Source: Bryobacterales bacterium (GTDB taxonomy: Bacteria > Acidobacteriota > Terriglobia > Bryobacterales > UBA6623). From it: DNA of 64,000 bases. The stretch spans positions 2,406,723-2,470,722 of the forward strand of contig OZ250179.1 of assembly GCA_965238125.1 (NCBI GenBank). The letters are read 5' to 3'. A program made the translations under genes and the position numbers. The stretch's first letter is position 1; each line of letters begins with the position of its first letter. Of this stretch, positions 24,517 through 26,826 are shown piece after piece. The notes below the pieces were generated by a model, which was not told where the DNA came from, searched no databases, and worked only from the letters and a program-made list of their open reading frames with translations.

Positions 24517-24800
24517 GAACCGAGGACGAGTTCGGCTGGAAAGGCCTTGTGGATGGAGTCCGCTTTCCGATCCTAGTGTAGTCGGCGGACTGTTGCGGGA
24601 TTCTTCGTGGGTGCGGTGGGTGTGGCAGGCGCATCGTGTGATGGTTGAGCGGATCCGGGTGTTGTCGGCATGGCGCTTCCGCTACGTTCCTTCCGGTCGT
24701 CGTAGGTCATCGCACACCACTTGCCGCCTAAGGGGCCGTGAAAAAATCGAGAGCTCCTCCAATATTGCGCCGGCAGACACAATTCGCAACCTACGATTCA

Positions 24801-26550
24801 GAGATGGGATGAGAGGCTGGTCGCTTGGCGCCGGGAAGCGGTAGGCTACCGGCAGCAGCGCACTTCTCCACAAGGGAGGTGCAATGGATTTTTGAAAAGG
24901 AGGCGACCAGCCATGAAGAAGAATAGCAAACAACAGACCGACAAGAACCAAACCGACAAACACCAAACCAAGAAAGCCGACAGCTCACAAGCGAAGACCC
25001 GCCAACTCACCCAGCTCGAACAACAGTTGGCGCAACAACGCATCCAGATGCAAAAAGACAACGAAATTTGCGCCGTCGCCGGCGTCGACATCGGCGACAA
25101 ACGTTGCTTCGTACGGCTCACCGACCTCGCCGGCGAAAGCCTCGAGGAATGCCAAGTCCCCACCCGCCCGGAGGCCTTGGATCGCTGGTTCCGCCGTTGG
25201 CCGCGGCTGCGCATTGTGATCGAAACCGGCAGCCACAGCAACTGGATTCGCCGCCGCCTGGCCGCCCTCGCCCACGACGTGCTCGTCGCCGACGCGCGGC
25301 AATTGCGTTTAATCAGCCAATCCGACTCGAAAAACGACCGCAACGACGCCTATTGGTTGGCCGAGCTGGGACGCACCAACCCGGCCCTGTTGAATCCCGT
25401 CGCGCCGCGCAAGCTCGAGACCGAACAACAACGCACGTTGTTGCGGGCGCGCGAGGCCGTGCTCGAGTGCCGCACGAAATTGAAAGGGAGTTTGCGCGGC
25501 ATGGCGAAGTCGCACGGCATCCGCTTGGGCCGATGCGCCCAGAACCAATGGGTCGAGCGCGTCCGGGAGGCCTGCCCCGAGGTGTTGCACGCGGCGTTGT
25601 TGGGGGTGGCGACACAAATCGAAAGCCTCGGCGCGACGATCCGCGAATATGACAAACAAATCGTCGCGTTGGGCAAGCAATACGCAGCGGTCGAGCGGCT
25701 GCGAACGATCGGAGGGGTGGGGCCGCTGACGGCGTTGACGTTCGTGTTGGCGCTCGACAACGACCCGGGCCGCGTGAAGCGTTCGCGGCAGGTCGGCGCG
25801 CTGGTGGGGCTGCGTCCCAAGCAACGCCAATCGGGCGAGCGGTCACTGCGGCTGGGCGTGACGAAATCGGGAGATCCGCTGCTGCGGCGGACGTTGATTC
25901 AGTGCGCGCACTGGGTGCTGGGGCCGTTCGGGACCGACTCCACGCTCAGGCGCTGGGGTTTGGGTTTGGCGGCGCGCGGCGGAGGACATGCGAAGAAGCG
26001 GGCGGTGGTGGCGGTGGCGCGCAAGTTGGCGGTGCTGATGCATGTGTTGTGGGTGAAACAAGAAAACTACGATCCGCTGCACGGGCTGACGGAAACGGTT
26101 TCCCCATAAGGCAGGGACGATGAGGCGCAGTCGGCGGCAACGGTTTCGGATGAAGCAACGTGATGAGGACATCCGCGAGCCCCCTAACGGGGACTCGGCG
26201 GCAAGAAGATTCCTGTTGAAAGGAAGGGAGTAGGGGATTGGGCGGACGAAGCGAGGCCGCGGCGGAGAATCGAGATCGTGTCACGGTGACTGCGGGCTCT
26301 GGGCAGGCAGGCCGATTCTTTCGAGGATGGGTCGAAGCCGCAACAGAGAGAGCAGCGCCGAAAGACCGGACCCCAACCAGCAGAGGTCAACAACGAGACC
26401 GATAACACTGCGAATGGAAGCCCGGTCCTCAACGCGCCGCAAGGCATGAGGACCCGGGCCGGATCCGACAAACCGACCAACGCCTCCCAACGACCGCCCT
26501 TGACAAGCGACCCACCTCTCATGGAAGCCCAGAGCGCAAGCGACGGGCCA
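24801..26550 (+). mobile_element. IS110-family element, IS1111-like architecture, copy 1 (limits are the extent of identity with copy 2)
   Basis: Near-identical to 37664..39518 apart from a 107-bp duplication. Short 5' leader (91 nt) and long 3' tail (about 420-440 nt). Sub-terminal inverted repeats tgagaggctggtcgcttg (24810-24827) and caagcgacccacctctca (26504-26521) match 16/18. The true right end is probably about 26525-26527 (see findings). Confidence 0.9.
24892..26109 (+). CDS. IS110-family (DEDD) transposase/recombinase
   Basis: 405 aa. Contains VAGVDIGDK, IVIETGSHSNW, VADARQL and KNDRNDA, plus the C-terminal domain LRTIGGVGPLTALTFV..GVTKSGDPLLRR. Confidence 0.95.
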   Translation: MKRRRPAMKKNSKQQTDKNQTDKHQTKKADSSQAKTRQLTQLEQQLAQQRIQMQKDNEICAVAGVDIGDKRCFVRLTDLAGESLEECQVPTRPEALDRWFRRWPRLRIVIETGSHSNWIRRRLAALAHDVLVADARQLRLISQSDSKNDRNDAYWLAELGRTNPALLNPVAPRKLETEQQRTLLRAREAVLECRTKLKGSLRGMAKSHGIRLGRCAQNQWVERVREACPEVLHAALLGVATQIESLGATIREYDKQIVALGKQYAAVERLRTIGGVGPLTALTFVLALDNDPGRVKRSRQVGALVGLRPKQRQSGERSLRLGVTKSGDPLLRRTLIQCAHWVLGPFGTDSTLRRWGLGLAARGGGHAKKRAVVAVARKLAVLMHVLWVKQENYDPLHGLTETVSP

Positions 26551-26826
26551 CGAGCGGGCGAGCGTCACGTGCTTCGGCGGCGCGTCTCCCCGAACGGTTG
26601 CGCGCTTCGGTATGGTCTTCCGTCTACTCGAAACCTTCGCGACCTTTTGGCCCGTCGCTTGCGCATTCTGAATTGTGTGCACGGGCAGGAGGGCGGCTAC
26701 CTAATTTTTCACATCCCTGACGCGCGCGGCTCGGTTTGGGTCTCCTGATCCGCTCTCTGTTCGCAACATGAGAAGATAGAAACTTCGGCTCCACGGGAGC
26801 CGACTCGATCAGGATCGACAACGGTA

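What the first reader, a model, noticed from the sequence alone, without database searches (positions are those of the whole stretch)
24794..26552. IS110-family element inserted site-specifically inside a short intergenic repeat that also exists unoccupied
Joining the flanks of copy 1 (cgattcag | agcccagagcgcaagcgacgggcca) recreates almost exactly a motif found free-standing at 29438-29472 (reverse complement ggattcagagccctgagcgcaagcgacgggccaag). A related free copy lies at 26647-26679. Copy 2 has the same right flank and a related left flank (gatactgag). Identity between the two IS copies therefore overshoots the true right end by about 25 bp. The dinucleotide AG is present at both junctions (24802-24803 and 26526-26527), as expected for a core dinucleotide with no target duplication. 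Sub-terminal inverted repeats (24810-24827 / 26504-26521) and the transposase sitting near the left end match the IS1111 subgroup, whose members are known to target REP-like repeats. Both occupied sites read cccAgagc, whereas the unoccupied copy at 29438-29472 reads cccTgagc and the one at 26647-26679 is truncated at this position.
Basis: partly seen in the sequence, partly recalled or inferred. Interest (0 to 1): 0.7.

Follow-up and report, generated by a model that had tools for sequence, protein, structure and literature searches.

The report
RNA-guided insertion sequence targeting intergenic repeat
This is a mobile DNA element of the known IS110/IS1111 kind that always inserts at one exact spot in a short intergenic repeat, and its own non-coding tail contains short stretches that match that spot, so it is a clear but ordinary example of RNA-guided transposition.

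Summary
Window 24802-26527 is a 1.72-kb IS110-family element. It has a DEDD/Tnp_20 transposase (24913-26109), 19-nt sub-terminal inverted repeats, a 416-nt 3' non-coding region and an AG core at both junctions. A second copy lies at 37665-39495. Eleven more copies from a near-identical metagenome assembly all sit in the same orientation at the same point of one repeat, (G)GATACAG|AG|CCCNGAGCGCAAGCGACGGGCC. Seven uninterrupted copies of that repeat were also found.

The mechanism can be read from the sequence. The 3' region holds a roughly 154-nt structured RNA (26274-26427), conserved across about 45 acidobacterial relatives and supported by compensatory base changes. One internal loop carries a stretch complementary to the right flank (26296-26304). 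It also carries a stretch identical to the left flank plus core (26342-26348). Both stretches change with the target in at least 15 relatives that use different sites. A second loop matches the element's own ends.

This is the published seekRNA/bridge-RNA system of IS1111-type elements, so it is a new member of a known kind. RNA expression was not tested.

The parts
24758..24801 (+). Left half of the interrupted intergenic repeat (…CACAATTCGCAACCTACGATTCAG), the left target flank.
   Evidence: nhmmer with the repeat profile, E = 2.7e-4; alignment of 22 repeat copies.
24802..24803 (+). Core dinucleotide AG at the left junction.
   Evidence: AG is the only sequence shared by both junctions and the empty site. 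The AG core is conserved in nearly all of about 45 relatives.
24804..26525 (+). Body of IS copy 1 (1722 bp without cores).
   Evidence: Ends defined by 13 independent insertions and by empty sites.
24809..24827 (+). Left sub-terminal inverted repeat, ATGAGAGGCTGGTCGCTTG, 5 nt in from the tip.
   Evidence: Pairs with 26504-26522, 17 of 19. The inverted repeats co-vary across relatives.
24860..24882 (+). GC-rich hairpin followed by a T run, just upstream of the ribosome-binding site. Possibly insulates the element from outside transcription or regulates the 5' UTR (inferred).
   Evidence: Terminator-like site; its position is conserved in L013 and L014.
24913..26109 (+). Transposase/recombinase gene, 398 aa. 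D59, E104, D142, D145 and S307 are invariant in the clade.
   Evidence: Pfam, NCBIfam NF033542, alignment A1, profile hits to ISCro4 and IS621 structures.
26274..26427 (+). Predicted seekRNA/bridge RNA, about 154 nt, two modules closed by a long-range stem (26274-76 with 26425-27).
   Evidence: Homologous region detected in about 70 relatives. 24 base pairs, 95% of cells paired, 13 pairs with compensatory changes, slid controls 26-49% paired.
26294..26305 (+). 5' side of the target-binding loop. GCTCTGGGC (26296-26304) is complementary to the top strand of core-G plus the right flank, GCCCAGAGC.
   Evidence: 8-9 of 9 match at all 13 occupied sites. It co-varies with the right flank in relatives: cognate longest exact match averages 6.95 nt against 3.66 nt for non-cognate pairs.
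26340..26351 (+). 3' side of the target-binding loop. AACAGAG (26342-26348) is identical to the left flank plus core (ATACAG|AG), so it would pair with the bottom strand.
   Evidence: 5-6 of 7 match at all 13 occupied sites. Co-varies across relatives: 6.68 nt cognate against 3.57 nt non-cognate.
26368..26379 (+). 5' side of the second loop, GGACCCCAACCA. CCCA is complementary to TGGG at the left tip of the IS (candidate right-donor guide).
   Evidence: Partial co-variation: TTCA with TGAA in L015-L030, CACA with TGTG in L042, CTCA with TAAG in L013. No change in lineages with single substitutions, so this part is weaker.
26412..26424 (+). 3' side of the second loop, GAATGGAAGCCCG. It equals the right tip of the IS (ATGGA) plus core AG plus the first right-flank bases CC (left-donor guide plus handshake-like bases).
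   Evidence: ATGGAAG is present in all relatives. It becomes ATAGAAG where the right end is CATAGA (L049/52, L070/87). The next 2 nt match right-flank positions 1-2 in 60 of 76 comparisons against 29.5 when permuted.
26500..26505 (+). TTGACA, 26 nt from the right tip. Candidate -35 box of a promoter completed only in the excised circle (inferred).
   Evidence: CTTGAC(A) sits at the same distance in all relatives. No complete sigma-70 promoter inside the integrated IS.
26504..26522 (+). Right sub-terminal inverted repeat, CAAGCGACCCACCTCTCAT.
26526..26527 (+). Core dinucleotide AG at the right junction.
26528..26604 (+). Right half of the interrupted repeat (CCCAGAGCGCAAGCGACGGGCC…), the right target flank.
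   Evidence: nhmmer E = 1.1e-14; identical in copy 2 up to 39518.
26591..26693 (-). Inverted partner copy of the repeat, a short variant that lacks the insertion point.
   Evidence: (I9). It scores 5/9 and 3/7 against the guides. With the right half-repeat it forms a long hairpin, z = -4.6.
29429..29494 (-). Uninterrupted full-length copy of the repeat (empty site), GGATTCAG|AG|CCCTGAGC….
   Evidence: Guide matches of 8/9 and 5/7 are as good as at occupied sites.
37665..39495 (+). IS copy 2 including both AG cores. Transposase at 37776-38972, left flank AGATACTG, right flank identical to that of copy 1.
39277..39489 (+). Tandem duplication in copy 2 (units 39277-39383 and 39384-39489) bounded by the 10-nt repeat ATGGAAGCCC. 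The outer right end has two 1-nt deletions.
   Evidence: (D3). Absent from the same locus in L012, which is 99.9% identical.

Best explanation
**What it is.** An autonomous IS1111-type member of the IS110 family, living in an acidobacterial (Bryobacterales-like) genome. It moves by RNA-guided site-specific recombination.

**How it most likely works.**
1. The DEDD/serine recombinase (24913-26109) acts together with a roughly 154-nt structured RNA encoded in the 3' non-coding region (26274-26427).
2. One internal loop of that RNA reads the target. Its 5' side (GCUCUGGGC) pairs with the top strand of the right flank, GCCCAGAGC. Its 3' side (AACAGAG) pairs with the bottom strand of the left flank plus core, ATACAG|AG.
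3. A second loop reads the element's own joined ends: CCCA against the left tip TGGG, and AUGGAAG equal to the right tip plus core.
4. Strand exchange happens at the AG core, so AG appears at both junctions and there is no target duplication.

Because the guides match a roughly 48-nt intergenic repeat, the element lands only in that repeat, always in one orientation, and leaves many copies empty.

**Shown here:** element anatomy, insertion specificity, conservation and structure of the RNA region, and guide-target co-variation. **Inferred:** that the RNA is expressed and bound by the recombinase, a circular intermediate, and a junction promoter.
For: - **Specificity.** 13 of 13 unique insertions are at the same point and orientation of the repeat, and 7 full-length empty sites exist.
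- **Protein.** Pfam and NCBIfam place it in the IS110 RNA-guided transposase family. The catalytic D/E/D/D/S residues are invariant in alignment A1. A profile matches the ISCro4 and IS621 recombinase structures.
- **RNA region.** The 3' non-coding region is homologous across relatives that share only 46-62% protein identity.
- **Structure.** 24 pairs, 95% of cells paired, 13 pairs with compensatory changes, 0 of 500 shuffles as good, slid controls 26-49% paired. G-U pairs fix the strand as the transposase strand.
- **Guides follow the target.** At least 15 distinct target classes each have matching loop sequences. The longest exact match averages 6.95 and 6.68 nt for an element's own target, against 3.66 and 3.57 nt for foreign targets. 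One example is GAGC to GAAC in both guide and target, between this IS and L013.
- **Donor loop.** It co-varies with right-end variants, and its +2 bases match the right flank.
- **Agreement with the literature.** The order (top-strand match 5' of bottom-strand match) and the position downstream of tnp are as published for IS1111-type seekRNAs (PMC11187229) and bridge RNAs (PMC11208160).
Against: - There is no expression or binding data.
- No Rfam family matches the region at E <= 1.
- No sigma-70-like promoter was found inside the integrated element.
- The bottom-strand guide of this particular IS is short: 5-6 matched nt, and only 5 at window copy 1.
- The top-strand guide pairs with only one base of the core.
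- Co-variation for the left-tip (right-donor) guide is partial: lineages with single substitutions show no compensating change.
- Many relatives are closely related to each other, so match counts are not independent events.
Confidence: 0.85

Rival explanations
1. Target choice is made by the protein alone, which recognises the repeat directly (for example through the CAAGCGAC 8-mer shared by the sub-terminal inverted repeats and the repeat). On this view the 3' non-coding region plays no part in targeting.
For: The 8-mer CAAGCGAC occurs in both inverted repeats (24820-27 as reverse complement, 26504-11) and in the target at 26537-44. No RNA expression data exist.
Against: Relatives with nearly identical ends insert into completely different sequences, and in each case the two loop sequences, not the ends, change to match. 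The 8-mer similarity is not kept in L013, whose repeat and inverted repeats differ there.
Confidence: 0.05
2. The 25-nt 'right flank' and the left-flank similarity are really parts of a longer element. There would then be no site specificity, and the free-standing motifs are remnants left by excision or decay of the IS.
For: Identity between the two window copies runs beyond the proposed right end. The repeat's right half often follows IS copies.
Against: Empty sites join the left and right halves seamlessly with a single AG and no IS-derived bases. The left flanks of different copies are only related, not identical. The same repeat family is the target of three IS lineages with 49-62% protein identity in other genomes. 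Relatives with the same conserved tips have unrelated flanks.
Confidence: 0.03
3. The two window copies and the extra loci are collapsed or duplicated assembly artefacts rather than independent insertions.
For: Contigs in the related assembly have only 5-8x coverage by their names. Copy 2 differs from the same locus in L012 by a tandem duplication and two 1-nt deletions, which could be consensus errors.
Against: The 13 copies have different flanking genes and different left-flank sequences, and they lie inside contigs of 43-535 kb. That pattern is not what a repeat collapse produces.
Confidence: 0.02

Closest known systems
IS1111-group elements with a 3' seekRNA (ISEc11, ISPa11, ISKpn4; Siddiquee et al. 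2024, PMC11187229)
   Same: DEDD transposase with the GL-P----SG motif, sub-terminal inverted repeats, long non-coding region downstream of tnp, and a structured RNA with a top-strand match 5' of a bottom-strand match that overlap at the insertion point. There is no target duplication. ISPa11, which has a defined consensus target in that paper, is REP-targeting from my own knowledge, not checked here.
   Different: The protein is only about 32-33% identical to the closest named elements found (ISEc11, ISAzs32). It is 398 aa, with a roughly 55-aa K/Q-rich N-terminal extension, against the 330-350 aa reported as typical. The host is acidobacterial. The predicted RNA is a two-module structure of about 154 nt that also matches the donor ends, whereas the published short seekRNAs are 82-96 nt.
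IS621 / IS110-group bridge RNA system (Durrant et al. 2024, PMC11208160; Hiraizumi et al. 2024, PMC11208158)
   Same: A two-loop RNA, one loop for the target and one for the donor. Each loop has one guide for the top strand and one for the bottom strand, arranged around a 2-nt core. Extra 'handshake' bases match the partner DNA. IS621 also inserts into REP sequences.
   Different: In IS621 the RNA is upstream of the gene, the order of the guides is reversed, the inverted repeats are only 2-3 bp, and the core is CT. The handshake bases there adjoin the top-strand guides. Here the bases that match the partner DNA follow the bottom-strand guides. Protein similarity is detectable only with a profile and only in the C-terminal domain.
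ISPpu9/ISPpu10 of Pseudomonas putida (Pares-Guillen et al. 2025, PMC12288879)
   Same: An IS110-family element inserted at an AG dinucleotide inside a REP, preferentially where REPs occur as oppositely oriented pairs. Some ISPpu9 copies carry duplicated end modules (B and B' boxes). This recalls the duplicated right end of window copy 2.
   Different: ISPpu9 belongs to the IS110 group, without sub-terminal inverted repeats. The repeat here is not itself a significant palindrome (z = -0.25).

Membership tests
IS110 family (DEDD RNA-guided transposases) | Transposase with an N-terminal DEDD/RuvC-like domain (PF01548) and a C-terminal Transposase_20 domain (PF02371) carrying a conserved Ser-Gly. 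| tested here: met
   Pfam 7e-16 and 6e-18. NCBIfam NF033542 at 211 bits against a cut-off of 140. D59, E104, D142, D145, S307 and G308 are invariant in A1.
IS110 family (DEDD RNA-guided transposases) | Site-specific insertion at a conserved core dinucleotide, with no target-site duplication beyond the core. | tested here: met
   AG at both junctions and once in empty sites, for 13 of 13 insertions.
IS1111 group | Sub-terminal inverted repeats of 7-17 bp or more, set a few bases in from the tips. | tested here: met
   24809-24827 against 26504-26522, 17 of 19, with 5-nt and 3-nt terminal extensions. They co-vary across the clade.
IS1111 group | The longer non-coding region lies downstream of tnp. 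| tested here: met
   109 nt upstream (24804-24912) against 416 nt downstream (26110-26525).
IS1111 group | C-terminal motif GL-P----S(t)G. | tested here: met
   GLRPKQRQSG, residues 299-308; motif as given in PMC11187229.
IS1111 group | Transposase length of 330-350 aa and full-length relatedness to the IS1111 transposase. | tested here: inconclusive
   The protein is 398 aa; without the N-terminal extension the core is about 343 aa. Single-sequence tblastn reaches ISEc11 (32%, 3e-12) and ISAzs32 (33%, 6e-25), but a single-sequence search does not reach IS621. No phylogeny with ISfinder entries could be made.
seekRNA / bridge RNA of IS1111 type | A structured RNA in the 3' non-coding region with a top-strand-complementary stretch 5' of a bottom-strand-complementary stretch, overlapping at the insertion point. 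| tested here: met
   26296-26304 and 26342-26348 sit on the two sides of one internal loop.
seekRNA / bridge RNA of IS1111 type | The RNA is expressed, co-purifies with the transposase and is required for transposition. | not testable with these tools
   No transcript or biochemical data are available. Rfam 15 has no matching model.
REP (repetitive extragenic palindromic) sequences | Short, extragenic and many copies per genome. | tested here: inconclusive
   All copies seen are intergenic. There are 4 in the 64-kb window and about 22 in roughly 150 kb of sampled sequence. A whole-genome count was not possible.
REP (repetitive extragenic palindromic) sequences | Each unit contains an imperfect palindrome. 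| tested here: not met
   The 52-nt consensus folds no better than shuffles (z = -0.25). Only inverted pairs of units form a strong hairpin (z = -4.6). 'REP-like' or BIME-like describes how it behaves; strict membership is not claimed.

The most novel reading that the evidence does not exclude
In this acidobacterial IS1111-type clade, the bases that match the partner DNA follow the bottom-strand guides. The right-tip guide is followed by the first two right-flank bases. In some lineages the left-flank guide is followed by the first bases of the left tip. In IS621 the equivalent handshake bases follow the top-strand guides. This could mean a different order of strand exchange. It also means the guide-encoding DNA (ATGGAAGCCC at 26414-26423) is an exact mimic of the right junction. 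The 107-nt right-end duplication in copy 2 could then have been made by the recombinase acting on its own guide DNA rather than by slippage.
Probability: 0.15. Interest if true: 0.5.

Novelty: new member of a known kind. Interest (0 to 1): 0.3.

Why it matters
The element adds an unnamed IS to a family whose RNA-guided mechanism was worked out in 2024. Its protein is at most about 35% identical to anything found in the plasmid collection. It comes from a poorly studied phylum, Acidobacteriota.

The practical value is as a natural data set. One clade has nearly invariant ends and a conserved RNA scaffold, but at least 15 different target classes. It therefore displays natural reprogramming of the guide loops, and it shows how much mismatch is tolerated: for example, any base at the fourth position of the right flank.

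The result also explains why this genome's intergenic repeat is repeatedly interrupted. It does not open a new question.

Tried and rejected
- **Rfam.** A scan of 24500-26900 at E <= 1 gave only a chance lncRNA hit.
- **PDB, single sequence.** No hit. A profile was needed to reach ISCro4 and IS621.
- **Promoter.** The sigma-70 scan found nothing inside the IS.
- **A/T allele as determinant of occupancy.** Rejected.
- **Guide register.** I considered a register in which GGGCTCTG pairs across the core (CAG|AG|CCC). I rejected it because L013 supports only the other register, GCCCNGARC.
- **GATGGG at 26326 and CGATTC at 26313 as guides.** Rejected, because neither is conserved in L013.
- **A donor guide of 7 nt or more complementary to the left tip.** None found. 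Only a 4-5-nt CCCA-type match with partial co-variation.
- **The repeat as a classical palindromic REP.** Not supported.
- **The shared 8-mer CAAGCGAC (inverted repeats and target) as functional.** Judged coincidental, since it is not kept in L013.
- **Whole-genome census of the repeat.** Not possible.
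Full report
**1. The observation**

An ORF at 24913-26109 (398 aa, preceded by AAGGAGG) carries the two Pfam domains of IS110-family transposases. 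It also passes the NCBIfam model 'IS110 family RNA-guided transposase' at 211 bits against a cut-off of 140.

A second copy starts at 37658. A global alignment shows 3 substitutions between the copies. Identity begins at the left junction and continues 25 nt beyond the right end of the element, to 26550/39518. AG is the only sequence shared by the left junction (…TTCAG AG ATGGG…), the right junction (…CATGGA AG CCCAG…) and the uninterrupted motif at 29438-29472 (reverse complement GGATTCAG AG CCCTGAGCGCAAGCGACGGGCCAAG).

The sub-terminal inverted repeats are real: 24809-24827 against 26504-26522, 17 of 19. The 18-mer GAGCGCAAGCGACGGGCC (up to 3 mismatches) occurs four times in the window against 0.25 expected.

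**2.

An exact-protein look-up found the same transposase on 17 contigs of one ENA metagenome assembly (ERZ26167216), and the copy-2 variant on 4. Twelve loci were fetched. L012 is the same locus as window copy 2 at 99.9% identity. The other eleven are new sites with different neighbouring genes.

All 13 unique insertions have the same structure: (G)GATACAG-AG-[IS]-AG-CCCNGAGCGCAAGCGACGGGCC, always in the same orientation. The loci and the window also hold seven full-length uninterrupted copies of the repeat, plus two shorter variants that lack the insertion point. The refutation condition, copies lying in unrelated sequence, is not met.

The A/T hint is not borne out. Position N is A (8), G (2), C (2) or T (1) in occupied sites, and A (5), T (1) or C (1) in the seven full-length empty sites.

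**3. The repeat**

About 48 nt are conserved (cACAATTCasAAcgCrGATACAGAGCCCAGAGCGCAAGCGACGGGCC), followed by a more variable tail. Copies often occur as oppositely oriented pairs about 130 nt apart, with the IS in one member.

A single unit is not a significant palindrome (z = -0.25), but a pair forms a long hairpin (z = -4.6). It therefore behaves like REP pairs or BIMEs without meeting the strict REP definition. Density in the window is low, at four copies in 64 kb.

**4. Relatives**

The protein has thousands of relatives. A scan of representative genomes returned 80 loci, nearly all from Acidobacteriota MAGs, many of them Bryobacterales. The closest are L014 (89% protein identity) and L013 (62%). 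The host is therefore probably a Bryobacterales-like acidobacterium; this is an inference from the hosts of the relatives.

The whole IS aligns with L013 at 67% nucleotide identity, non-coding region included. Profile searches show that both the left end and the 3' non-coding region are homologous across the clade, down to 46% protein identity.

The tips are almost invariant: AG|ATGGGATGAGAAGGCC … GGCCTTCTCATGGA|AG. The flanking sequences fall into many unrelated classes.

**5. The guide RNA**

Within the conserved 3' region two short blocks are not conserved. Instead they follow the flanks.

- **First block.** It lies just after the invariant GGTGACTGCG and is the reverse complement of the right flank:

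| Element | Block | Right flank |
|---|---|---|
| This IS | GCTCTGGGC | GCCCAGAGC |
| L013 | GCGTTCCGGGC | GCCCcGAACGC |
| L016 | GTCCACGCC | GGCGTGGAC |
| L070 | TGGGGCGTCT | AGACGCCCCA |
| L081 | TGTGCTGGC | GCCAGCACA |

- **Second block.** It lies just before the invariant GCAGC and is identical to the left flank plus core. Here it is AACAGAG. Relatives carry GACAGAG, TACTGAG, TTATCAG, TAAGTTAG or CCGTAGAG, each matching its own left flank.

Over 44 loci the longest exact match between a block and its own target averages 6.95 and 6.68 nt. Against targets of other classes it averages 3.66 and 3.57 nt.

At the 13 insertion sites of this IS the blocks match 8-9 of 9 and 5-6 of 7. Full-length empty sites score the same. 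The two short repeat variants score 5/9 with 3/7, and 7/9 with 1/7. The N position lies opposite a U of the first block, which explains why it is tolerated rather than decisive.

**6. Structure**

The two blocks lie on opposite sides of one internal loop. The loop is closed by an outer stem (26284-26293 with 26352-26360) and an inner stem-hairpin.

A second module has a stem at 26380-83 with 26408-11, which is GCAG/CTGC here and in L027 but GCAC/GTGC elsewhere. It also has a hairpin with many compensatory changes. A long-range stem (26274-76 with 26425-27) closes the whole structure.

On the 45-sequence alignment, 24 pairs are 95% paired, and 13 pairs show changes on both sides. No shuffle of 500 reaches the observed values, and sliding the partner columns drops pairing to 26-49%. 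Frequent G-U pairs fix the strand as that of the transposase.

**7. The donor loop**

The 3' side of the second loop is GCG(G/A)ATGGAAG in all relatives, which equals the right tip of the IS plus the core. It reads ATAGAAG exactly in the two lineages whose right tip is CATAGA. The two bases that follow match the first two bases of the right flank in 60 of 76 comparisons, against 29.5 on permutation. This resembles the handshake bases described for IS621 (PMC11208158).

The 5' side contains CCCA, complementary to TGGG at the left tip. It becomes TTCA where the tip is ATGAA and CACA where it is ATGTG, but lineages with single substitutions show no change. This guide is therefore only partly supported.

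**8. Comparison with what is known**

Everything above matches the published picture. IS1111-type elements carry sub-terminal inverted repeats and a long downstream non-coding region. That region yields a seekRNA with a top-strand match 5' of a bottom-strand match (PMC11187229). Bridge RNAs were predicted in 93% of IS1111 elements, often with donor-binding bases in a multi-loop (PMC11208160). Targeting of REPs and REP pairs at an AG core is known for ISPpu9 and IS621 (PMC12288879).

The closest named elements found are ISAzs32 (33% identity) and ISEc11 (32%). IS621 and ISCro4 are reached only with a profile, and only over the C-terminal domain. The element is thus an unnamed, fairly distant member of a known kind.

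The departures are modest:
- a roughly 55-aa K/Q-rich N-terminal extension;
- a target repeat that is not itself palindromic;
- partner-matching bases that follow the bottom-strand guides.

**9. What is not shown**

Expression of the RNA, its binding to the protein, and a circular intermediate are all inferred. Rfam has no model that matches, and no sigma-70 promoter lies in the integrated element.

CTTGACA is conserved 26 nt from the right tip in all relatives. By analogy with the junction promoters of ISEc11 and IS621 (as summarised in PMC12288879), it is probably the -35 box of a promoter completed in the circle. The -10 across the junction would only be GAAGAT.

**10. Copy 2**

Its right end carries a tandem duplication of the 107-nt segment running from the donor-guide block to the right tip. 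The duplication is bounded by the 10-nt repeat ATGGAAGCCC, which exists because the guide block copies the right junction. The outer right end has two 1-nt deletions, one in the inverted repeat and one in the tip.

The same locus in L012 has none of these differences. This is either a strain polymorphism (slippage, unequal exchange, or the recombinase acting on the guide DNA) or a consensus error in a low-coverage assembly. Read-level data are needed to tell which.

**Verdict**

The mechanism is identified as IS1111-type seekRNA/bridge-RNA guidance, with strong comparative evidence for it. Novelty: a new member of a known kind. Interest is modest, at 0.3.

Noticed in passing
window 39277-39495: Copy 2 has a 107-nt tandem duplication of its right end, bounded by ATGGAAGCCC, plus two 1-nt deletions in the outer right end. 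The same locus in a 99.9%-identical assembly (L012) lacks all three.
   Followed up: partly
window 26500-26505, and the same position in L013-L091: CTTGAC(A) is conserved 26 nt from the right tip in every relative. It is probably the -35 box of a promoter completed only in the excised circle. The -10 across the junction would be a poor GAAGAT.
   Followed up: partly
window 24860-24882: A GC-rich hairpin followed by a T run lies in the left end, just upstream of the transposase ribosome-binding site. Its position is conserved in L013 and L014. It may block read-through from outside or regulate translation.
   Followed up: no
window 24913-25077 (residues 1-55 of the transposase): A lysine/glutamine-rich N-terminal extension of variable length begins with the conserved MKKNS and is shared by the clade. 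It makes the protein 398 aa against the 330-350 aa reported for IS1111-family transposases.
   Followed up: no
window 24820-24827, 26504-26511, 26537-26544: The 8-mer CAAGCGAC of the sub-terminal inverted repeats also occurs in the target repeat. It is not conserved in the related IS of L013, so it is probably chance.
   Followed up: partly
window 32468-34041 and 34825-37140: Other insertion sequences lie next to copy 2: an IS4/IS5-like DDE_Tnp_1_4 element, and two diverged tandem IS630-like (HTH plus DDE_3) copies (79% identity between 34865-35164 and 36083-36382).
   Followed up: no
window 13865-13929, 14887-14923, 40696-40760, 44797-44853: A second intergenic repeat family (GACATGTCGSCACGAATGSCGACACGrCTCGCCTGGAGGC) is present in both orientations. 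It is unrelated to the IS target.
   Followed up: no
window 24730-24757, 59078-59104 and 59174-59200: A third short repeat, GGGGCYGTGAAAAAAT, lies just left of the interrupted repeat at copy 1. It also forms an inverted pair near 59.1 kb.
   Followed up: no
L013:2275-4014, L021 and L026 (other Bryobacterales MAGs): Three IS lineages with 49-62% protein identity all target the same repeat superfamily, AG|CCCNGARCGCAAGYGACGGG, in different genomes, and their guide loops are adjusted to the local variant (GAGC against GAAC). The association between element and repeat therefore seems old.
   Followed up: partly
L015:2293-3826: This relative has AA instead of AG at its right junction, its top-strand guide does not match its right flank, and its donor-guide block reads ATCGAAG. 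It is probably a decayed or mis-inserted copy.
   Followed up: no
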